Positions 115-36,185 of a stretch of 64,000 nucleotides of DNA are shown in pieces. This DNA comes from a virus (lineage: Duplodnaviria; Caudoviricetes). The notes under the pieces were generated by a model. The model was not told the DNA's origin. It searched no databases and worked only from the letters and a program-made list of their open reading frames with translations. The number at the start of each line of letters is the position of its first letter. The stretch's first letter is position 1. Position numbers and translations under genes: made by a program. The DNA is taken from the IMG/VR virus record IMGVR_UViG_3300021387_000688. The stretch is one strand, 5' to 3'.

Positions 115-173
115 GTAGCATAGCAATGTTCCTATTTTTTCTATTTTAAGCAAAGATTTATACATTCCGCTAC
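115..173 (+). ncRNA. Bulged-stem scaffold RNA copy 1
   Basis: GTAGC-ATA-GCAATGT-TCCTATT...TAT-ACATTC-C-GCTAC; divergent member of a six-copy family. Confidence 0.6.
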
Positions 174-195: not shown

Positions 196-672
196 ATGCC
201 AAGATTGTTAAAAGAAAGTGATAGAGCTTTAGCAATGAGAAGAGCTCAATCGATGATGGGTTCTAGAGCACCTATGGGTGGAAGTCCAATGGGATTTGGT
301 TTTGATGCAAACGATCCTCAATCTTTGAAAAGAGGATTGATGTTAATGCAGCAACAACTTAAAGATATGGAAGCCCATCCAAATAGATACATTCAAGCCA
401 TGAAAAATGGAGTATGTGTCGCAGGTTTTGGCGGAGACCTGTTCGGAATCGAGGTTCCAGAAACTTTGATGTATGGTGAAGTTCCTCCAGGAGTAACTCC
501 AGCTCAGGCTTTCCAGCAGGTTATTGATTACATGAGGCAAGTAATTGAAGCCGCTAGAAACAAGTTAGGTGGACCAGCTTCTAATAGAACTGCACTCAAA
601 GCACCTCCAAAAATGTTGGAGAGCATTGATAGATTGATTATTAGTACAGGATCTTGGGGATCTGTAAAGTAA
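196..672 (+). CDS. Hypothetical protein with N-terminal LKES motif (possible head-internal protein)
   Basis: AGGAG RBS, 158 aa, ACTAAATA motif upstream. Confidence 0.7.
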   Translation: MPRLLKESDRALAMRRAQSMMGSRAPMGGSPMGFGFDANDPQSLKRGLMLMQQQLKDMEAHPNRYIQAMKNGVCVAGFGGDLFGIEVPETLMYGEVPPGVTPAQAFQQVIDYMRQVIEAARNKLGGPASNRTALKAPPKMLESIDRLIISTGSWGSVK

Positions 673-1642: not shown

Positions 1643-1719
1643 AGTGCATAAGTTGTTCCTATTTTTAAAGAAGGATACTGGATCCAGGGCGACCTGGATG
1701 ATTATATACAACTCGCACT
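1643..1719 (+). ncRNA. Scaffold RNA copy 3 (GNRA hairpin cargo)
   Basis: AGTGC-ATA-AGTTGT-TCCTATTT...ATCCAGG-GCGA-CCTGGAT...TAT-ACAACT-C-GCACT. Confidence 0.75.
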
Positions 1720-3537: not shown

Positions 3538-3605
3538 TTTAGTAATTTTTATTCCTCTGATTCTCTATATTGTAATATACAATATAATAAGTGGAGGTAT
3601 TATCG

Positions 3606-4271
3606 ATGGCACACAACTTTCAAAAAATCTATGCACCGTTTGGTCGTAAGAATCCAAACGATCGTCTTGTAGACACATCAATTTATTCTCGGGGCTGGGT
3701 TCAGATGTTTTACGAAAACAATGTAAAGATGAAGGCATCTGAAAAGATTGACGGAACTTCTGTAGGTATTGTTTGGGATGGAGAAAGAATCTCCTTCATT
3801 GGACATACAGAAAAGTCTCAGTTTGCTCCTCGTTATCTTGAATATCTTAACAGCCGTTTTGGTACTCCTGAATTCGAATCTGTAGTAGAAGAGATTGCAG
3901 GTGACAAAAAGGTTACAATCTACGGTGAAGGTATCTCAAAGGATTACAATGTTCACTACGGTTTCCCAGATGGTGAATTTATCCTTTACGATATCCAGAA
4001 AGAAGATGGTACATTCTGGTGCCGCGAAGCTGTTGCAAGTGTAGCTACAAAACTTGGCATGATTATGCCTTGGGAAACAGATATGACTATTCAGGAAGCA
4101 ATCGACTTCGTAAAGACTCGTCCAGCATCTAAGCTTAATCCTGAAAACAAAATGGAAGGTTTGGTACTTCGTTCACCAATTGAACTTTACAGCGCTAATC
4201 ATTTTGAGCGCATTATTTGTAAAGTTAAGGTAAAGGATTTCGTAGACCTTAAGGATTACAGGACTGAGTAA
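3606..4271 (+). CDS. RNA ligase (Rnl2-like nucleotidyltransferase)
   Basis: Motif I EKIDGT, YGE, EGLVLR, C-terminal CKVK. Confidence 0.8.
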   Translation: MAHNFQKIYAPFGRKNPNDRLVDTSIYSRGWVQMFYENNVKMKASEKIDGTSVGIVWDGERISFIGHTEKSQFAPRYLEYLNSRFGTPEFESVVEEIAGDKKVTIYGEGISKDYNVHYGFPDGEFILYDIQKEDGTFWCREAVASVATKLGMIMPWETDMTIQEAIDFVKTRPASKLNPENKMEGLVLRSPIELYSANHFERIICKVKVKDFVDLKDYRTE

Positions 4272-8316: not shown

Positions 8317-8390
8317 GTCTCATTAGTGTTAGCGGCTTAGCACCCTAGTCCTCCAAACTGGGAGCATCGGTTCGAATCCGATATGGGGCT
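8317..8390 (+). tRNA. tRNA-Gly(TCC), C33
   Basis: Cloverleaf, loop CCTCCAA. Confidence 0.85.
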
Positions 8391-8393
8391 TGG

Positions 8394-8476
8394 TACATAA
8401 AGGTTTCGTTTAGAAGATTGCTGCACCTTTAAGCAGGCTGAAACGAATAGAAACTGAATCGAAAGATTCTAATGTA
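8394..8476 (+). ncRNA. Pseudoknotted spacer RNA
   Basis: TACAT/ATGTA, TTCGTTT/AAACGAA, loop ACCTTTA complementary to TAAAGGT, GAATC-GAAA-GATTC. Confidence 0.45.
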
Positions 8477-8502
8477 GGAGTAAGCATAAGAATCTTATGA
8501 AT

Positions 8503-8870: not shown

Positions 8871-8885
8871 CTCTAATTAAAAAAG

Positions 8886-9069
8886 TTGGGTAAACCTCGA
8901 CCCAGTTGGATTCCTTCCTGAATAGGATTCAATGTTAAGGACTAGAGGAATTTACAGAAACTGCTTTAAGTAGCAAGTTCTCGAAAGATCGTTTATTCCC
9001 CCTCCCTAAAACGATTGAGTAGCTTTACGAGTGAATATAAGGGGTAGCTCTAAGTGGGTCAGGCCACTC
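8886..9069 (+). ncRNA. Putative multi-pseudoknot ncRNA
   Basis: Hairpins TTGGGT/ACCCAG, GATCGTTT/AAACGATT, AGTGG/CCACT with loop segments complementary to downstream GAGG, AAGGA and AGGGG. Confidence 0.4.
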
Positions 9070-9077
9070 CCTGTTAT

Positions 9078-9150: not shown

Positions 9151-9230
9151 AAATCAAAATGGCCAGGGAGCCCTAACGGATGCTGGGCGGCTTAATGATG
9201 TTACTGAATGGTGGTAACCCATTTTGATTT
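9151..9230 (+). ncRNA. Structured spacer RNA
   Basis: 12-bp closing stem AAATCAAAATGG/CCATTTTGATTT around CCAG/CTGG with GAGCC:GGCTT pseudoknot potential. Confidence 0.5.
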
Positions 9231-9310: not shown

Positions 9311-9358
9311 AGCACATTTGCCGAGGCCTACTAGCGAAACGAAGAGACGGCAATCTTG

Positions 9359-9440
9359 GAGGAGTAGTGAAAAATGGTTGTAGGGATAAGGAACTTCTGT
9401 TGCCGCGGAAAAACAAGAGTGGGTTCGATTCGCCACCCTC
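9359..9440 (+). pseudogene. Degenerate tRNA-like sequence
   Basis: T-arm-like GTGGGTTCGATTCGCCAC and TTCTG/CGGAA arm; D arm and acceptor defective. Confidence 0.35.
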
Positions 9441-9448
9441 GGAATTAT

Positions 9449-9558: not shown

Positions 9559-9804
9559 ATGTATAGAAGATATCCTAAAAAACAAGATCACGGTACACGT
9601 GGATCAAAAAGCGAGTCATTGCTCTATTGGGGCAATTATAAGAAGGGTCTAAGATTATCTGCAAAGGAATATTTTAGACAATATAAGCATAGAGTTAAAC
9701 AAGCTCTAAAAGTAATTACTATTGAATGTACTGACGAAGAAGTTGAAGAATTCTATTTAAGGAGTCAGCATCGGGTTCAGGATCAATGGTATGAATTTGA
9801 TTAA
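9559..9804 (+). CDS. Small basic protein preceded by in-frame mini-ORF MKFH-TAG (9541-9555)
   Basis: 81 aa; the strong RBS sits in front of ATG 9541. Confidence 0.6.
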   Translation: MYRRYPKKQDHGTRGSKSESLLYWGNYKKGLRLSAKEYFRQYKHRVKQALKVITIECTDEEVEEFYLRSQHRVQDQWYEFD

Positions 9805-9807
9805 AGC

Positions 9808-9930
9808 ACTTGCGACCTAGTCAAGTATAAAAGTACATTAGGCGGCACTAATCGATCTGCCATAGAAATGATCGAGAGACCTTTGACAGTTAAAACGGAG
9901 AAGTCAATAGTAATATTGTTAAACTGTCAA
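9808..9930 (+). ncRNA. Pseudoknotted spacer RNA
   Basis: ACTTG/CAAGT hairpin with loop CCTAGT complementary to ATTAGG; TCGATC/GATCGA; TTGACAGTT/AACTGTCAA. Confidence 0.4.
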
Positions 9931-9936
9931 TATTAT

Positions 9937-10018
9937 GCTTCAGTGGTGGAATTGGTATGCACACCTGTTTAAGGGGCAGGCGCCGAAAGGATTGAGAGTT
10001 CGAATCTCTCCTGGAGCA
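9937..10018 (+). tRNA. tRNA-Leu(AAG)
   Basis: CCTGT-TTAAGGG-GCAGG, long variable arm, A73. Confidence 0.85.
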
Positions 10019-10028
10019 CTAATTTATA

Positions 10029-10156
10029 AAAATGTTTTCAAAGTGCCTAACGCAACACCGACGCGCTATGCGGGAGCGAGGAGTAAAATAAAGCAGTCCT
10101 ATGTAAGTAGGAAACAGGCAACGGTAACGATCCTGGTGGAATGTTGAAAACATTTT
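10029..10156 (+). ncRNA. Structured spacer RNA
   Basis: 13-bp closing stem AAAATGTTTTCAA/TTGAAAACATTTT, TGCCT/AGGCA, GTAA tetraloops. Confidence 0.5.
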
Positions 10157-10191
10157 AGAAAAATTAACAAGTTGCACTAACTATATTAAGA
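10146..10191 (+). promoter_or_regulatory. Conserved promoter box of tRNA array 2
   Basis: 42/46 nt identical to 7901-7946. Confidence 0.75.
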
Positions 10192-10247
10192 ATATAAGTT
10201 TTAAGTAACTTGTAAACAAAGACTTGATATAAAGGAGTATGTATATT

Positions 10248-10364
10248 ATGATGAACGTATTTAACACTACAACTAAAACAACTACAAAGCATAATCATAT
10301 GAATATGCATACATTCACAAACACAAATAAATTTTTCTTTAATAAGAAAAATGGAGTGAGTTAA
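10248..10364 (+). CDS. Leader peptide 2 (38 aa; Thr/Asn/Lys/Phe/Met/His rich)
   Basis: AAGGAG RBS; MMNVFNTTTKTTTKHNHMNMHTFTNTNKFFFNKKNGVS; stop lies inside the antiterminator. Confidence 0.85.
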   Translation: MMNVFNTTTKTTTKHNHMNMHTFTNTNKFFFNKKNGVS

Positions 10365-10423
10365 GTCTTTTAATTTTATCCGAATTTTAGAAGGCTTAAC
10401 TCGAAAGGGTTAAGCCTTTTTTT
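10358..10423 (+). terminator. Attenuator 2: antiterminator 10358-10402 versus terminator 10391-10423
   Basis: GAGTTAAGTCTTTTAA/TTAGAAGGCTTAACTC overlaps AAGGCTTAACTC-GAAA-GGGTTAAGCCTT-T tract. Confidence 0.85.
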
Positions 10424-10437
10424 ATTGGATTTTTTAT

Positions 10438-10523
10438 GCTACAGTCGCATAGTGGTTGATTGCACCGGATTTGTAATCCGGTAGGTTTATAGCCTCGCGG
10501 GGGTTCGAATCCCTCCTGTAGCT
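10438..10523 (+). tRNA. tRNA-Thr(TGT) with long variable arm
   Basis: CCGGA-TTTGTAA-TCCGG, GCU/AGC acceptor, AGGT/GCCT variable stem. Confidence 0.82.
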
Positions 10524-10526
10524 TAT

Positions 10527-10596
10527 AAAAGCACAAGTTGTTCCTATTTGCTGATGAAGCAATACACTGTTAATGTATTTGATACAACTCGCTTTT
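10527..10596 (+). ncRNA. Scaffold RNA copy 4 carrying an Asn(GTT) anticodon stem-loop
   Basis: AAAAGC-ACA-AGTTGT-TCCTATTT...AATACA-CTGTTAA-TGTATT...AT-ACAACT-C-GCTTTT. Confidence 0.75.
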
Positions 10597-10604
10597 AATT
10601 TTAT

Positions 10605-10679
10605 GGTGCCTATGGTGGAGTGGTCTAACACGCTTGACTGTGGATCAAGATTTCGTCGGTTCGAACCCGACTAGGTACC
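10605..10679 (+). tRNA. tRNA-His(GTG)
   Basis: G-1:C73, CTTGA-CTGTGGA-TCAAG. Confidence 0.92.
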
Positions 10680-10693
10680 CTCAAATGTAATTT

Positions 10694-10767
10694 GGTCCGT
10701 TAGCTCTAATGGTCAGAGCGGATGCCCGTTAAGCATATGGTTGCAGGTTCGAGTCCTGCACGGACCG
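10694..10767 (+). tRNA. tRNA-Asn(GTT), C33
   Basis: Loop CCGTTAA, G73. Confidence 0.88.
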
Positions 10768-10777
10768 TATATTTTAT

Positions 10778-10852
10778 GCTACGTTAGCTCTTAACGGCTA
10801 GAGCGCCTGACCTGTAATCAGGATGTTGGGGGTTCGAATCCCTCACGTAGCT
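10778..10852 (+). tRNA. tRNA-Thr(TGT), C33
   Basis: CCTGA-CCTGTAA-TCAGG. Confidence 0.88.
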
Positions 10853-10859
10853 TATTTAT

Positions 10860-10930
10860 CCGCAGGTCGCCTAATGGTAAGGCCTCTGACTGAAGATCAG
10901 AAGTTTGGGGTTCGATTCCCTGTCTGCGGG
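10860..10930 (+). tRNA. tRNA-Phe(GAA), G37/G73 variant
   Basis: TCTGA-CTGAAGA-TCAGA. Confidence 0.8.
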
Positions 10931-10935
10931 CTTAT

Positions 10936-11009
10936 GTTGAGGTAGCAAAGTTGGTCAATTGCGATGGACTGAAAATCCATTGATGTGAGTTCGATTCTCA
11001 CCCTCAACA
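10936..11009 (+). tRNA. tRNA-Phe(GAA)
   Basis: ATGGA-CTGAAAA-TCCAT. Confidence 0.9.
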
Positions 11010-11015
11010 ACGCAT

Positions 11016-11090
11016 GCTACTTTAGCTCAAATTGGTTAGAGCACGAGTTTCGTAAACTTGGGGTTACAAGTTCGAATCTTGTAAGTAGCT
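11016..11090 (+). tRNA. tRNA-Thr(CGT)
   Basis: CGAGT-TTCGTAA-ACTTG. Confidence 0.9.
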
Positions 11091-11108
11091 TGATAAGGAG
11101 ATTTTTTT

Positions 11109-11276
11109 ATGGATTGTGGAGCTCCAAGAATTGAAGGTCCAATGGCTAAAAAGGTTTATGAATACATGATTAATGAATCTGAAAAAGCCAAAGCCAATAA
11201 AGAATCTAGAGAGGAAAAACGAAAGAAACGTTTAAAGGAATTTGAAGAACTTATGAAGAAGAAACAGAGGGCTTAA
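11109..11276 (+). CDS. Small charged hypothetical protein (55 aa)
   Basis: AAGGAG RBS; MDCGAPRIEGPMAKK...KKKQRA. Confidence 0.6.
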   Translation: MDCGAPRIEGPMAKKVYEYMINESEKAKANKESREEKRKKRLKEFEELMKKKQRA

Positions 11277-11344
11277 CCTTCTATTCAGCCCATTGGAATT
11301 GAAGGTGCCCAGATTAGATGGAAAAGACATTTTCAATTTTTAAT

Positions 11345-11419
11345 GGACTACTAGCGCAACTTGGTTAGAGCACGTGCCTTTTAAGCATGGGGTTCTGGGT
11401 TCAAATCCCAGGTAGTTCA
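11345..11419 (+). tRNA. tRNA-Lys(TTT)
   Basis: CGTGC-CTTTTAA-GCATG. Confidence 0.9.
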
Positions 11420-11434
11420 CTTCCGATTTATTTC

Positions 11435-11507
11435 GGGCCCGTAGCTCAATTGGCAGAGCAATACACTTTTAATGTATGGGTCGACAGTTCGAATCTGTCC
11501 GGGCTCA
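11435..11507 (+). tRNA. tRNA-Lys(TTT)
   Basis: ATACA-CTTTTAA-TGTAT. Confidence 0.92.
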
Positions 11508-11521
11508 CTTCGATTTTATAT

Positions 11522-11596
11522 CGGCCTGTAGCGCAACTTGGTTAGAGCGAGTGCCTCTTAAGCATTAGGTTCTGGGTTCAAATCCCAGCAGGCTGA
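11522..11596 (+). tRNA. tRNA-Lys(CTT)
   Basis: AGTGC-CTCTTAA-GCATT. Confidence 0.9.
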
Positions 11597-11603
11597 CTTA
11601 TTT

Positions 11604-11682
11604 GGGCCTTTGTCAGAATGGGATTGGAACACACTTTTAATGTGTCGCGAAAGCAGAGCGGGTTCGATTCCCGCAGGGCTCA
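11604..11682 (+). tRNA. tRNA-Lys(TTT) with extended variable arm
   Basis: ACACA-CTTTTAA-TGTGT followed by GC-GAAA-GC arm. Confidence 0.8.
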
Positions 11683-11684
11683 AC

Positions 11685-11766
11685 GGGCCATTGATCGCAG
11701 AATGGGATTGCAACAGACTCTTAATCTGTTTCTTCGGAAGACTAGGTTCGATTCCTAGATGGCTCA
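11685..11766 (+). tRNA. tRNA-Lys(CTT) with extended variable arm
   Basis: ACAGA-CTCTTAA-TCTGT followed by TC-TTCG-GA arm; extra nt before D stem. Confidence 0.75.
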
Positions 11767-11827
11767 TCAAAAGTAAGTAGAGTTCTCGAGACAACGCTTA
11801 CTATATTTAATTTGAATTTGATATATG

Positions 11828-11900
11828 CAGCTTATAGCTCAACTTGGTAGAGCCGTGGCCACTTAATTACGGGTTGGAGGTTCAAATCCTTCTAAGCTGC
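11828..11900 (+). tRNA. tRNA-like RNA with aberrant anticodon arm (CTT-containing 8-nt loop)
   Basis: Good acceptor, D and T arms; CGTGG-CCACTTAA-TTACG. Confidence 0.6.
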
Positions 11901-11920
11901 CTTATACAAATATGATATAT

Positions 11921-11992
11921 GGGTCCTTCGTATATCGGTTAGTACTGCAGACTGTTAATCTGCGTGGGTAGGTTCGACTCCTACAGGACCCG
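11921..11992 (+). tRNA. tRNA-Asn(GTT)
   Basis: GCAGA-CTGTTAA-TCTGC, G73. Confidence 0.9.
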
Positions 11993-11999
11993 CTAAAAT

Positions 12000-12127
12000 A
12001 AAATTGCACAAGTTGTTCCTATTTTTTAGGCTCATAACCCGAAAGCGGTGGTTCGATTCCATCTCCCCTTGTCTTCGTAAGGGGATAGTGTAGTGGTAGC
12101 ACGGCGTATTATACAACTCGCAATTTT
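12000..12127 (+). ncRNA. Scaffold RNA copy 5 carrying a circularly permuted tRNA (Y RNA/YrlA-like topology)
   Basis: Order: CAT anticodon loop, T arm, acceptor TCCCCTT-loop-AAGGGGA, D arm, all inside the scaffold stem. Confidence 0.75.
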
Positions 12128-12131
12128 TTAT

Positions 12132-12204
12132 GCTGGGTAAGTTCATATGGTTGAACGCCGCCCTCATAAGGCGGATGTACGTGGTTCGAGTCCACGACTC
12201 AGTA
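12132..12204 (+). tRNA. tRNA-CAT (Met or Ile2)
   Basis: CCGCC-CTCATAA-GGCGG. Confidence 0.85.
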
Positions 12205-12210
12205 AATTAT

Positions 12211-12281
12211 GCTAGCTTCGTACAGTGGTAGTACACATGCATGGTAAGCATGTAATGAGGGTTCGATTCCCCCAGTTAGCT
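12211..12281 (+). tRNA. tRNA-Thr(GGT)
   Basis: CATGC-ATGGTAA-GCATG. Confidence 0.85.
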
Positions 12282-12283
12282 CT

Positions 12284-12343
12284 AATGCATAAAGTGTTCC
12301 TATTAAAAACTTGACTGAAAATCAATTGTATACACTTCGCATT
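12284..12343 (+). ncRNA. Scaffold RNA copy 6 carrying a Phe(GAA) anticodon stem-loop
   Basis: AATGC-ATA-AAGTGT-TCCTATT...TTGA-CTGAAAA-TCAA...TAT-ACACTT-C-GCATT (compensatory changes). Confidence 0.75.
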
Positions 12344-12382
12344 TTTCTATTCTTTTAAGGGGCCGGCGGCCCCTATTTTTAT

Positions 12383-12457
12383 GGTTGCGTAGCTCAACTG
12401 GATAGTAGCAATGGACTTCGAATCCATAGGTTGTAGGTTCAAATCCTATCGCAATCA
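12383..12457 (+). tRNA. tRNA-Arg(TCG)
   Basis: ATGGA-CTTCGAA-TCCAT. Confidence 0.88.
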
Positions 12458-12515
12458 AAACCTTTTCGAAAATCTGATTCCCGGATTCCGCTATATTATT
12501 ACTGAGGTACTTAAT

Positions 12516-13352
12516 ATGGCAAAAGAGAAATATTTCCGTTCACTTCCAGATCAGCTTTATCTTTACAAGAGATTTGATTCAGTTGGAAAAAAGGAAGGTT
12601 GTGAGTGCGATGAATGCGGGGCTTGGTTACAGAATATTGTAACTGTAGTAGGTTCTGTTGATCACTTGGAATATCATCTCGGCCTTACATGTTGTGAAAA
12701 ATCATCAAAGGGTATGAAGAATATCAACTTGGATGATAAAACAACTCAATATGTTAAGTACTGGAAGAAAAGATTAAATCAGCTTAAAAACTTCCGCAAG
12801 GATTTCGATAAGAAAATGGCTTACGGAAAGGTAATTGCAATTCTTGGTAGCTTCTATTATAACGTTCAAAAGAAAACCACTTCAATCGATTTTACTTTCC
12901 TCTATGAAGGGGGAGATTGGTGGCGCATGAATAACGACGTTTCAATCACAGGTTATTACAATAAAGTAAAAGAAACTTTTGCAGATGTTTGGGATGCGAT
13001 TGATTGGAAAGGATATGAAGGTTGTGCAGCCGCTGCAACTTCAAAAGAAGTTTGGGATATCCTCCATGACAATTCTCGTAACGTTCGTTTAAGAGATTTC
13101 AATAAAAGAACAGAAGAAGACTATCCCGAATGGGAACGTTATAACATAGTTAGAAATGCAATCCGCCAGTCTTTTGATTACAATAGCGGTTGGGGCGAAG
13201 GTAAAACTATTAAGCTTCCCGTTTGGTTCAACAAAGATGAATATGACGACATCTTTGATAAAGTACTTGCAAGTTATAATGGATATCAGAATCTGGATAA
13301 AACAACTTTCATCAATGGATACGATGCAGAAAAAATGTCCCGATACAACTAA
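12516..13352 (+). CDS. Hypothetical protein with CxxC..CC zinc-finger-like N-terminus
   Basis: GAGGT RBS at MAKEK; CDECG and CC motifs. Confidence 0.7.
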   Translation: MAKEKYFRSLPDQLYLYKRFDSVGKKEGCECDECGAWLQNIVTVVGSVDHLEYHLGLTCCEKSSKGMKNINLDDKTTQYVKYWKKRLNQLKNFRKDFDKKMAYGKVIAILGSFYYNVQKKTTSIDFTFLYEGGDWWRMNNDVSITGYYNKVKETFADVWDAIDWKGYEGCAAAATSKEVWDILHDNSRNVRLRDFNKRTEEDYPEWERYNIVRNAIRQSFDYNSGWGEGKTIKLPVWFNKDEYDDIFDKVLASYNGYQNLDKTTFINGYDAEKMSRYN

Positions 13353-19120: not shown

Positions 19121-19426
19121 ATGCAATATACCCTTTATTTAAAGTCACATTTCAAGAAATATAAAAAAGAAAGAATTCCTCTTATTGCTTTTGATATAAA
19201 TGATCCAAAAAATATCTATTGGTATTTTCTTTCCGATACTCAAATTGATTGCGAAAAGCATCAAGGCTTTTGGGATGTAGATTGGGAAAGAATTAAACTG
19301 TTAAGAGATGCCATCGCAGAAGAAATAAAAAATTGGGACAAGTGGAGTCTATGTGATTCTTTTGAAGAATGGTTTGAAAAACAAACTCTTTTAAGAAATG
19401 ATTTTGAATGGGAGAAAGGTATATGA
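19121..19426 (+). CDS. Hypothetical protein
   Basis: Operon packing. Confidence 0.65.
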   Translation: MQYTLYLKSHFKKYKKERIPLIAFDINDPKNIYWYFLSDTQIDCEKHQGFWDVDWERIKLLRDAIAEEIKNWDKWSLCDSFEEWFEKQTLLRNDFEWEKGI

Positions 19427-20046
19427 AAGAAAGAATAATCTTTCTCGACATCGATGGTGTAGTGGATAGTTTAAAATATTTCAAATCTAAAAAATATAAA
19501 TCTGAAAAGGCTGACCACGAGTATGACATGTCAAATATGATAAACCGTCAGAATCTTTTTTGGGTTGGACTTCTTTGCAGAATAACAAAAGCAAAAGTTG
19601 TTTTATCCTCTACTTGGAAATATGGCTTTAACGAAGATGGTACTCCAAAAGAAATGGAGAAAGGTCACAATATGTTTAAGACAAACGACCTCTTCAAAAA
19701 ATATGGAGTTAACATTATTTCTATTACAAGAAAAGGAGAATTGGTTCCTCCAGATTGGGAATTAGATTTAGATAATTTATCTAAGTGGTGCGATGGAAGA
19801 AAATTCTCAGGTTTAGAAGATTGCAAAGAAAAAGAGTTCATTTTAAAGTATTGCCGAGGCACCCAAATTGCAGAATGGATTGAAAGAAACAATTACAAGG
19901 GAAACTATATTGTAATTGACGATGATGTAGGAGACATCATTTTCTATAAAGATTTGAAAAAGAGATTAGTTCAAACTTCGTATTATAGTAGATATGATGG
20001 TTTTAGATTTTTACATTTTTTAAAAGGATTGTGGTTGCTAAAATGA
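19423..20046 (+). CDS. HAD-family phosphatase (RNA-repair-type HAD domain)
   Basis: IIFLDIDGV, VVLSSTW, RG..I..W, IDDD motifs. Confidence 0.75.
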   Translation: MKERIIFLDIDGVVDSLKYFKSKKYKSEKADHEYDMSNMINRQNLFWVGLLCRITKAKVVLSSTWKYGFNEDGTPKEMEKGHNMFKTNDLFKKYGVNIISITRKGELVPPDWELDLDNLSKWCDGRKFSGLEDCKEKEFILKYCRGTQIAEWIERNNYKGNYIVIDDDVGDIIFYKDLKKRLVQTSYYSRYDGFRFLHFLKGLWLLK

Positions 20047-36101: not shown

Positions 36102-36185
36102 GGGCTAGTCAGTTAACGGCTAGGCTCTACGTTAAAGCCGATAGTGGAAAGCGTAGGAATGTGGGTTCGAATCCCATCTAGTCCA
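36102..36185 (+). tRNA. tRNA-like RNA with about 18-nt expanded anticodon loop
   Basis: GGGCTAG/CTAGTCC acceptor, AGTT/GGCT D arm, GTGGG-TTCGAAT-CCCAT T arm, TACGT/GCGTA stem. Confidence 0.65.

What the first reader, a model, noticed from the sequence alone, without database searches (positions are those of the whole stretch)
10527..12343. Isolated anticodon stem-loops (Asn GTT, Phe GAA) as possible nuclease decoys or sensors
Copy 4 carries AATACA-CTGTTAA-TGTATT, with the same stem as tRNA-Lys at 11435 but the anticodon changed to GTT. Copy 6 carries TTGA-CTGAAAA-TCAA. Both have canonical U33/A37 seven-nt loops and match amino acids of array 2, whereas several real tRNAs here have altered loops. 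Inference: canonical loops are displayed as bait or as cleavage sensors for host anticodon nucleases.
Basis: inference. Interest (0 to 1): 0.7.

Follow-up and report, generated by a model that had tools for sequence, protein, structure and literature searches.

The report
Anticodon hairpins on phage handle RNAs
The two "loose" anticodon hairpins are real: each is the variable insert of a small structured RNA whose conserved "handle" recurs in giant phages and bacteria next to one unnamed protein gene, so they look like tRNA-part mimics carried by an undescribed RNA-protein particle, while their proposed role as nuclease bait is still untested.

Summary
Observation confirmed. Copy 4 (10530-10593) and copy 6 (12286-12341) are two of exactly six copies in the window of one RNA module. 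The module is a covarying clamp helix plus an invariant UCCUAUU strand, and it encloses a variable cargo.

- **Copy 4:** the cargo is a short hairpin plus a 5-6 bp stem with loop CUGUUAA. It is conserved base for base in three other phages whose clamp and hairpin covary.
- **Copy 6:** the hairpin (4 bp, loop CUGAAAA) is weak and no orthologue was found.
- **Class:** anticodon-like hairpins are a recurrent cargo class, 12 of 43 mini cargos against 2.0 in shuffles. Other cargos are permuted tRNAs, anticodon-less tRNA bodies, T-arm minihelices, or about 23 nt of A/U-rich sequence.
- **Partner protein:** the handle lies directly upstream of an unannotated 600-690 aa protein (new helical domain plus TerD-like domain) in 56 of 80 viral loci and 34 of 79 genome loci.

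Best reading: a handle-bound particle that displays tRNA parts, working like Ro60/Y RNA but not a member of that family. The decoy or sensor role for anticodon nucleases is possible (about 0.2) and untested. The same handle also occurs as an intron-like insert in tRNA genes, so a processing role is a live rival.

This scan had already noted the handle family elsewhere in this genome and other "handle" families in other genomes.

The parts
10530..10593 (+). Copy 4: complete handle RNA (clamp + UCCUAUU + cargo + clamp)
   Evidence: Model R1 74.4 bits, E 4e-19; clamp fold; orthologues in three other phage contigs
10530..10548 (+). Copy 4, 5' half of the handle: outer AGC, internal-loop ACA, inner stem AGUUGU, invariant UCCUAUU
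   Evidence: Sequence; covariation of both helices
10549..10561 (+). Copy 4 cargo, small hairpin (4-bp stem, GAUGA loop) in the position of a D arm
   Evidence: Fold; compensatory GCU/AGC to GCC/GGC change in L141
10562..10578 (+). Copy 4 cargo, anticodon-like stem-loop; loop CUGUUAA at 10567-10573 (GUU, Asn-like)
   Evidence: these 17 nt are identical in four phages; all five stem pairs covary across the class
10584..10593 (+). Copy 4, 3' half of the handle (ACAACU-C-GCU)
12286..12341 (+). Copy 6: complete handle RNA with a 27-nt cargo
   Evidence: Model R1 41.1 bits, E 2e-9; inner stem AAGUGU/ACACUU is compensatory relative to copy 4
12311..12325 (+). Copy 6 cargo, weak anticodon-like hairpin (4 bp); loop CUGAAAA at 12315-12321 (GAA, Phe-like)
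   Evidence: Sequence; aligned to the anticodon-arm positions of R1; not in the minimum-energy fold
117..171 (+). Copy 1: handle RNA with a 25-nt A/U-rich cargo
   Evidence: 30.5 bits
684..807 (+). Copy 2: handle RNA whose cargo is a normal-order tRNA-like body with a capped anticodon arm and an encoded GCCA
   Evidence: orthologue L133:2203-2327
1645..1717 (+). Copy 3: handle RNA with a 7-bp hairpin capped by a GNRA tetraloop
12005..12122 (+). Copy 5: handle RNA whose cargo is a circularly permuted, loop-capped tRNA-Met-like body (CAU loop kept)
   Evidence: similar permuted cargos in L159, L164, L133, L129 and L091
10248..10364 (+). Context: 38-codon leader ORF rich in Thr/Asn/Lys/Phe/His/Met, followed by a terminator-like hairpin, ahead of the array that holds copies 4-6
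   Evidence: Read from the sequence; its regulatory role comes from earlier scan notes and was not tested here

Best explanation
Copies 4 and 6 are small non-coding RNAs of a widespread, uncatalogued family.

Anatomy and release:
- Each is transcribed inside the phage tRNA array. It is presumably freed when the flanking tRNAs are processed (inferred).
- Each folds into a conserved handle: a 3-bp outer helix, an AYA/C internal loop, a 6-bp covarying helix and a single-stranded UCCUAUU.

Partner:
- The handle is most likely the binding site of one dedicated protein of 600-690 aa, with a helical N-domain of unknown fold and a TerD-like beta-sandwich.
- This is inferred because the gene travels with handle arrays in phages and bacteria.

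Cargo:
- The handle exposes a variable cargo built from tRNA parts.
- In copy 4 this is a mini D-like hairpin plus a canonical anticodon arm. In copy 6 it is a bare, weak anticodon-like hairpin.
- The particle would therefore present tRNA look-alikes to factors that read tRNA parts. For these two copies that means factors reading an anticodon loop: a nuclease, a modification enzyme or another binder.

It works like Ro60 with tRNA-like Y RNAs but is not a member of that family.

Shown: the structure, its conservation, the cargo classes and the gene linkage. Inferred: protein binding, RNA release and any decoy action.
For: Specificity and structure:
- Six copies and nothing else in 64 kb match the model.
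- The clamp covaries. Of 244 non-identical 5' motifs, 160 have a perfect partner, against 12 +/- 3 when stems are swapped between elements; there are 66 stem variants.
- In the 15-member hairpin-plus-anticodon-arm class, 95.4% of cells pair against 71.2% in shuffles. 11 of 16 pairs show double changes, and 0 of 500 shuffles reach the observed covariation score.

Conservation of the cargo:
- The copy 4 cargo is kept in contigs whose partner proteins are only 42-46% identical to the G001 one.
- Anticodon-like hairpins are enriched: 12 of 43 cargos against 2.0 +/- 1.4 in shuffles.

Gene linkage:
- One homologue of the protein is found in each of five huge-phage records.
- Handle copies abut its start codon in G002, G003, G004, L091 and L057 and in G005.
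- The handle motif lies on the same strand within 1.2 kb upstream in 56 of 80 viral loci, in arrays of up to 10, against 0.04 per kb on the opposite strand. No other gene is a conserved neighbour.
- The same holds in 34 of 79 genome contigs, including the isolate Marinicella meishanensis.

Cargos that cannot decode:
- Capped anticodon arms, T-arm/acceptor minihelices and bare anticodon arms are all conserved, which argues for mimicry rather than tRNA supply.
Against:
- The partner gene is not in this window, and the window's genome is not held. Its presence in this phage is inferred from the nearest relative, G001.
- The handle also occurs as a hairpin inserted in the anticodon stem of normal-order tRNA genes, and the phage encodes an RNA ligase and a HAD RNA-repair domain. 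Both fit a processing role.
- A handle sitting just upstream of the protein gene could instead be an autoregulatory leader.
- The copy 6 hairpin is marginal.
Confidence: 0.68

Rival explanations
1. First reader's reading. The canonical anticodon hairpins are bait (competitive decoys) or tripwires for host anticodon nucleases. They are mounted on the handle and made together with replacement tRNAs.
For: - The loops follow the anticodon-loop consensus and are under strong constraint.
- The array holds canonical and loop-variant (C33, G37, 8-nt) tRNAs for the same amino acids. Loop variation in phage tRNAs has been proposed as an escape from anticodon nucleases (PMC10264068, found).
- A leader ORF rich in Asn/Phe/Thr/Lys/His/Met precedes the array.
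- Among robust mini anticodon arms, Asn, Tyr and Lys anticodons are frequent. These are classical nuclease targets (own knowledge), but they are also the common codon types of A+T-rich genomes.
Against: - No nuclease, cleavage product or competition has been observed.
- Most cargos have no anticodon loop (114 of 186 distinct cargos are short inserts without an anticodon-like hairpin).
- The handle-protein pair also exists in bacterial genomes.
- The copy 4 stem copies the phage's own tRNA-Lys, not a known host tRNA.
Confidence: 0.2
2. The handle is a processing signal, functionally analogous to the archaeal bulge-helix-bulge motif. A phage or host endonuclease and a ligase remove it from intron-bearing tRNAs and circularise permuted ones. 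Mini-cargo copies such as 4 and 6 would be by-products, regulators or competitors of that pathway.
For: - The same hairpin sits between tRNA positions about 28-32 in normal-order tRNA genes of related phages.
- The inside-out form encloses permuted tRNAs, which is the layout expected from tandem duplication of an intron-bearing gene.
- RNA ligase PF09414 and HAD_SAK_2 are encoded in the window.
- Unexplained tRNA introns have been reported in Lak megaphages (PMC6784885).
Against: - No tRNA-splicing endonuclease in five huge-phage records, three of them complete.
- The distance from UCCUAUU to the first tRNA base varies from 0 to about 11 nt, and no bulge-helix-bulge geometry is seen (my parsing).
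- Many conserved cargos could never become tRNAs.
- The partner protein has no recognisable nuclease or ligase domain.
Confidence: 0.12
3. Copies 4 and 6 are decayed remnants of tRNA cargo or spacers with no function of their own. Only the handle, or nothing at all, is selected.
For: - The copy 6 hairpin is weak and has no detectable orthologue.
- The commonest cargo is a short unstructured A/U-rich insert.
Against: - The copy 4 cargo is identical over 17 nt in four phages while flanking helices change by compensation.
- The class has independent anticodons with covarying stems.
Confidence: 0.05

Closest known systems
YrlA-type Y RNAs with Ro60/Rsr in bacteria and phages (Rfam RF02553; Chen et al. 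2014, PMC4201824)
   Same: - A small RNA whose paired 5' and 3' ends form a conserved stem.
- A variable module that mimics tRNA (copy 5 and other permuted cargos have the closed-acceptor topology).
- Genes lie next to one protein gene.
- Found in both bacteria and phages.
   Different: - No RF02553 match at any copy; the only weak hits, 22-25 bits against a threshold of 69, lie at junctions of tandem tRNAs.
- No TROVE protein in five related records.
- The partner has a TerD-like domain and a helical domain with no detected Ro60 likeness.
- The handle sequence is different.
- Cargos include bare anticodon arms, which are not described for Y RNAs.
Bulge-helix-bulge tRNA introns, and split and permuted tRNA genes of archaea and Cyanidioschyzon (own knowledge; review PMC3400036 listed)
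   Same: One short RNA motif is found as an insert in tRNA genes, around permuted tRNAs, and around other small RNAs.
   Different: - No splicing endonuclease gene.
- No bulge-helix-bulge geometry, and spacing to the tRNA body is variable.
- A sequence-conserved single strand (UCCUAUU) and a dedicated non-nuclease-like protein.
Phage tRNAs with anticodon-loop changes that escape tRNA-targeting defences (van den Berg et al. 2023, PMC10264068)
   Same: Large phage tRNA arrays hold loop-variant tRNAs beside canonical ones.
   Different: Those are complete decoding tRNAs. Copies 4 and 6 are not tRNAs and sit on a protein-linked handle.
'Enigmatic' tRNA introns of Lak megaphages (Devoto et al. 2019, PMC6784885)
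   Same: Huge gut phages with interrupted tRNA genes, among them Gly(TCC) and Thr(TGT), the same isoacceptors that carry the handle insert in relatives here.
   Different: - The conserved word of this handle is absent from that paper's stored supplementary intron table.
- The paper describes no shared motif and no protein partner.

Membership tests
GUUCCUAUU-handle RNA family (uncatalogued; defined here) | Outer helix N-GC / GC-N' and a 6-bp inner helix ending G-C, U-A, both covarying between copies | tested here: met
   Copies 4 and 6 fold this way. The copy 6 stem is compensatory relative to copy 4. Family-wide covariation is shown.
GUUCCUAUU-handle RNA family (uncatalogued; defined here) | Invariant single strand UCCUAUU after the 5' stem, an AYA/C internal loop, and (U)AU before the 3' stem | tested here: met
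   Sequence of both copies; model R1 alignments.
GUUCCUAUU-handle RNA family (uncatalogued; defined here) | Genome encodes the 600-690 aa partner protein, usually directly downstream of a handle array | tested here: inconclusive
   The gene is not in the window and the genome is not held. It is present once in each of five related records, including the nearest relative G001.
Hairpin-plus-anticodon-arm cargo class of that family | Short capped hairpin followed by a 5-bp stem with a 7-nt loop Y-U-NNN-A-A | tested here: met
   Copy 4: fully met, 74.4 bits. Copy 6: anticodon arm only, 4 bp, no first hairpin, 41.1 bits.
YrlA / Y RNA (RF02553) | Match to the Rfam covariance model at its gathering score | tested here: not met
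   No hit at copies 1-6 even at E up to 5.
YrlA / Y RNA (RF02553) | Ro60 (TROVE) gene in the genome or nearby | tested here: not met
   PF05731 is absent from five related huge-phage records, three of them complete; the controls rang. The window's own genome could not be searched.
YrlA / Y RNA (RF02553) | tRNA-like domain with T arm, D arm and closed acceptor | tested here: not met
   Copies 4 and 6 have neither a T arm nor an acceptor. Copy 5 has this domain.
tRNA (RF00005) | Cloverleaf recognised by ARAGORN or Rfam | tested here: not met
   Neither program calls copy 4 or copy 6.
Bulge-helix-bulge spliced elements | tRNA-splicing endonuclease (PF01974) available | tested here: not met
   Absent from five related records; four archaeal controls were positive.
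Ro60-like fold for the partner protein | Helical-repeat ring similar to TROVE | tested here: inconclusive
   The N-domain model (pLDDT 83) has no match above Z 7.9, and that best match covers only 68 residues. Ro60 is not among the listed rows. The C-domain matches TerD at Z 9.6 and 8.1.

The most novel reading that the evidence does not exclude
The handle particle is a programmable display rack for tRNA parts. Phages load it with canonical anticodon arms (here Asn- and Phe-like). These soak up, or report the activity of, host enzymes that attack anticodon loops. The arms are made from the same codon-sensing transcription unit that supplies nuclease-resistant replacement tRNAs.
Probability: 0.2. 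Interest if true: 0.9.

Novelty: new variant of a known kind. Interest (0 to 1): 0.7.

Why it matters
**Scale of the gap.** Neither the RNA nor the protein is annotated:
- The RNA is absent from Rfam 15.
- The protein has no Pfam, PHROG, NCBIfam or PADLOC family.
- The protein forms at least 1,194 clusters at E <= 1e-10, all unnamed or 'hypothetical'.
- The pair is conserved from giant rumen phages to cultured bacteria.

**What it would show.** tRNA mimicry on a protein-bound handle would have arisen more than once (Ro60/Y RNA being the known case). Phages would have diversified the mimic into single tRNA parts, including bare anticodon arms.

**What it opens.** It gives a concrete handle on two open questions:
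- What tRNA-like Y-RNA modules are for.
- How giant phages manage the conflict over tRNAs.

It also warns annotators that 'tRNA with intron', 'permuted tRNA' and 'pseudo-tRNA' calls in large phages may be members of this family.

Tried and rejected
**Searches that found nothing**
- Rfam at gathering and at E up to 5: no family at any copy. A sub-threshold sX4 row (32.8 bits against 70) merely spans tRNA-Thr plus copy 4.
- blastn of 9800-12600 against cultured-phage records: only single-tRNA matches.
- A first 14-mer scan of viral contigs was dominated by chance hits. A longer degenerate pattern worked.
- Hammerhead idea: copy 4 contains CUGAUGA, but there is no GAAA core and the word is not shared by other copies. 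Rejected from the sequence.
- Promoter/terminator pair idea: rejected, because the two flanks covary as a helix.

**Protein comparisons**
- tRNA-splicing endonuclease and TROVE searches were negative in relatives.
- Partner protein: no Pfam, PHROG, PADLOC or PDB sequence match.
- NCBIfam gave only a local 26-28 bit similarity to a SCO0854-family model, far below its cut-off.
- Foldseek found nothing at E <= 0.001.
- No Ro60 row appeared in the structure searches, which is not evidence that the folds differ.

**Literature**
- The Lak megaphage intron table does not contain the handle word.
- Searches for permuted tRNAs or tRNA introns in phages found no description of this motif.

**Orthologues of copy 6**
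- The neighbouring gene has no relative in viral contigs.
- Its six metagenome relatives lie in other contexts, without tRNAs or handles.

- The look-up of sequencing runs, so no reads could be laid.
- The protein-atlas search.
- The Atlas fold library.

Full report
**What is there**

The window begins with a dense tRNA region: ARAGORN tRNAs between 716 and 12458. Scattered through it are six copies of one module, all on the + strand:

| Copy | Coordinates |
|---|---|
| 1 | 117-171 |
| 2 | 684-807 |
| 3 | 1645-1717 |
| 4 | 10530-10593 |
| 5 | 12005-12122 |
| 6 | 12286-12341 |

- Each copy starts N-GC-AYA, then six bases, then UCCUAUU.
- Each copy ends (U)AU, then the complement of those six bases, then C-GC-N'.
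- All fold with the same clamp: 3 bp, an internal loop, 6 bp.
- A covariance model built later from 15 relatives finds exactly these six sites in 64 kb on both strands and nothing else at E up to 10.

**The two hairpins of the finding**

Copy 4 has two elements between the clamp halves:
- a 4-bp hairpin with a GAUGA loop (10549-10561);
- a 5-6 bp stem with loop CUGUUAA (10562-10578).

Its stem and loop equal the anticodon arm of tRNA-Lys 11435-11508 except for U34 to G.

Copy 6 has only a 4-bp stem with loop CUGAAAA (12311-12325).
- The loop equals that of tRNA-Phe 10935-11011.
- The stem is too weak to appear in the minimum-energy fold.

Neither copy is called a tRNA by ARAGORN or Rfam.

- Gly 8317, Asn 10693 and Thr 10778 have C33.
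- The gene at 11828 has an 8-nt loop.
- Phe 10860 has G37.
- Each of these lies beside a canonical paralogue.

**Is it more than chance?**

A degenerate 18-mer of the 5' half found the module in about 25 viral contigs, among them records of 411-501 kb.
- Five such records hold 6-12 copies each, against 0-3 for a reversed control pattern.
- With the model they hold 6-10 copies each.

The helix is real.
- I defined 244 non-identical 5' motifs by sequence alone.
- Of these, 160 have a perfect six-base partner followed by N-GC and a pairing outer base within 250 nt.
- Only 12 +/- 3 do so when the stem is swapped for that of another element.
- There are 66 distinct stem variants, and G-U pairs occur, so the helix is an RNA helix.

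The copy 4 cargo recurs in L133:3532-3598, L141:4211-4277(-) and L091:9858-9920(-).
- The 17-nt anticodon arm is identical in all of them.
- The clamp differs by compensation, as does the small hairpin (GCU/AGC to GCC/GGC).
- The partner proteins of two of these contigs are only 42-46% identical to that of relative G001.

Eleven further elements carry the same two-hairpin layout with other loops, for example UUGGUAA, CUUGAAA, CUGUAAA, CUGAUAA and CUUUUAA. On the 15-sequence alignment:
- 95.4% of cells pair, against 71.2% in shuffles.
- 11 of 16 pairs show changes on both sides.
- All five anticodon-stem pairs covary.
- 0 of 500 shuffles reach the covariation score.
- U33 is invariant and A37 nearly so.

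In an unselected set of 43 short cargos, 12 have a strict anticodon-like hairpin, against 2.0 +/- 1.4 in shuffles (maximum 8 in 2000).

Copy 6 on its own is weak.
- About 5% of shuffled cargos give such a hairpin.
- I found no orthologue.

**What else rides on the handle**

Census of 186 distinct cargos:

| Cargo type | Number |
|---|---|
| Short inserts without an anticodon-like hairpin (median 23 nt) | 114 |
| Mini cargos with such a hairpin (about 20 robust) | 36 |
| Permuted tRNA-like bodies | 16 |
| Normal-order tRNA-like bodies | 7 |
| T arm without a recognised D arm | 13 |

Examples in the window:
- Copy 5 is a permuted, loop-capped tRNA-Met-like body.
- Copy 2 is a tRNA-like body with a capped anticodon arm and an encoded GCCA.
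- Copy 3 is a GNRA-capped hairpin.

In related phages the same hairpin also sits inside normal-order tRNA genes between about positions 28 and 32. There it runs 3' half, a small loop, then 5' half followed by UCCUAUU. Examples are Gly(TCC) in L182, Thr(TGT) in L166 and Lys(TTT) in L118.

**The partner gene**

- In G002 four handle copies abut a 582-aa ORF.
- Every one of five huge-phage records has exactly one homologue.
- A handle copy lies within about 20-130 nt of its start in G002, G003, G004, L091 and L057. G005 has a diverged one.
- In L091 that copy is the copy 4 type.

| Collection | Relatives of the protein | Loci examined | Handle word on the same strand within 1.2 kb upstream |
|---|---|---|---|
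| Viral contigs | 152 | 80 | 56 |
| Genome contigs | 79 | 79 | 34 |

- In the viral loci the copies are mostly at -50 to -400, in arrays of up to ten. Four further loci have them just downstream.
- The opposite strand has 0.04 per kb, and no other gene is a conserved neighbour.
- The arrays contain complete elements of all cargo classes.
- The genome-contig relatives are mostly Bacteroidales rumen genomes assembled from metagenomes, but also Planctomycetes, Desulfobacterales, cyanobacteria, Ktedonobacter and the isolate Marinicella meishanensis.
- In several bacteria, one to three tRNA-like genes of 110-130 nt with the handle hairpin in their anticodon region stand directly before the gene.

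The protein family is large: at least 1,194 clusters at E <= 1e-10, none with a Pfam domain or a name.
- It has no PHROG, PADLOC or PDB sequence match.
- Its C-terminal third models as a TerD-type beta-sandwich: 2qz7 at Z 9.6, 130 residues, rmsd 3.4; 2kxt at Z 8.1.
- Its N-terminal 430 residues model confidently (pLDDT 83) as a helical domain without a convincing structural relative. The best match is Z 7.9 over 68 residues.
- I therefore cannot say that it is Ro60-like in fold. TROVE proteins are absent from the five records.

**How it most likely works**

Shown:
- a conserved, covarying RNA handle;
- cargos made of tRNA parts, some of them under strong constraint;
- tight linkage of handle arrays to one protein gene across phages and bacteria.

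Inferred:
- The protein binds the handle.
- The RNAs are released from the tRNA transcript by the enzymes that trim the neighbouring tRNAs. Copy 4 starts 6 nt after tRNA-Thr and ends 12 nt before tRNA-His. Copy 6 starts 3 nt after tRNA-Thr.
- The particle presents its cargo to factors that recognise tRNA parts.

This is how Ro60 with tRNA-like Y RNAs is thought to be organised (PMC4201824), but none of that family's defining features is met here.

For copies 4 and 6, the presented part is an anticodon arm. Who reads it is unknown.

In favour of the nuclease-bait idea:
- loop-variant tRNAs next to canonical ones (compare PMC10264068);
- a 38-codon leader ORF (10248-10364) made almost entirely of the amino acids of the array;
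- all three anticodons carried on handles in array 2 (GUU, GAA, CAU) duplicate ordinary tRNAs of the same array.

Against it:
- Most cargos have no anticodon loop.
- The system exists in bacteria.
- No nuclease or cleavage has been seen.

I put this reading at about 0.2.

**Rivals**

A processing or splicing role for the handle fits:
- the intron-like and permuted forms;
- the RNA ligase (3591-4271) and HAD_SAK_2 (19408-20046) genes of the window.

Against it:
- No splicing endonuclease is present.
- The spacing between handle and tRNA body is variable.
- Many conserved cargos can never become tRNAs.

I put this at about 0.12. Pure decay is excluded for copy 4 and remains possible for the hairpin of copy 6.

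**Known or new**

- Rfam 15 has no such family.
- The papers I could search describe 'enigmatic' tRNA introns in Lak megaphages, without a motif or a partner, and this handle's word is absent from their stored table.
- Searches for permuted tRNAs or tRNA introns in phages gave nothing relevant.
- Earlier notes of this scan had already described this handle elsewhere in the same genome and other handle families in other genomes. My tests agree with them on the RNA-protein linkage. They do not confirm a Ro60-like fold for this partner.

**Limits**

- The window's genome is not held, so the partner gene in this phage is inferred from relatives.
- Part of the motif detection used the conserved word itself, so diverged handles are under-counted.

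Noticed in passing
window 8317-8390, 10693-10768, 10778-10852, 11828-11901, 10860-10931: tRNAs with non-canonical anticodon loops: C33 in Gly, Asn and Thr; an 8-nt loop in a Lys-like tRNA; G37 in one Phe. Each stands next to a canonical paralogue.
   Followed up: partly
window 10438-10523, 11603-11684, 11685-11766: tRNA-Thr and two tRNA-Lys genes of 82-86 nt with long extra arms, which is unusual for these isotypes.
   Followed up: no
window 9158-9225 and 9311-9448; L025 1574-1642 and 853-990: Two further non-coding stretches inside the tRNA array are conserved in relative G001. One has tRNA-like ends around a long insert. Other long non-coding gaps lie at 810-1390, 8391-8500, 8872-9077 and 10030-10160.
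   Followed up: no
window 3591-4271 and 19408-20046: An RNA ligase (PF09414) and a HAD domain of 'Swiss Army Knife' RNA-repair proteins are encoded near the arrays.
   Followed up: partly
window 10248-10364 plus hairpin about 10386-10425: A 38-codon ORF made almost only of Thr, Asn, Lys, Phe, His and Met, followed by a terminator-like hairpin, directly ahead of the array that decodes these amino acids.
   Followed up: no
L305 2050-2461; L310 2230-2342; L297 2359-2471; L301 2286-2402: In bacteria of different phyla, tRNA-like genes of 110-130 nt with the handle hairpin in the anticodon region lie just upstream of the partner-protein gene. Their acceptor and T-arm sequences are nearly identical across phyla and end in GCCA.
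   Followed up: partly
L088 5726-11065 (- strand): In the 501-kb phage record, the partner gene is followed by vWA, PP2C phosphatase and protein-kinase genes and a glutathionylspermidine-synthase-like gene. This set recalls Ter-associated gene clusters.
   Followed up: no
window 196-672, with copies 1 and 2 on either side; window 256-292 versus 11109-11145: A 158-aa ORF without any family is bracketed by two handle RNAs. It shares a 37-nt repeat (70% identity) with a small ORF inside array 2.
   Followed up: no
window 36102-36185 and downstream to about 36600: A weak tRNA-like hit (33.6 bits) followed by about 400 nt of non-coding sequence, far from the arrays.
   Followed up: no
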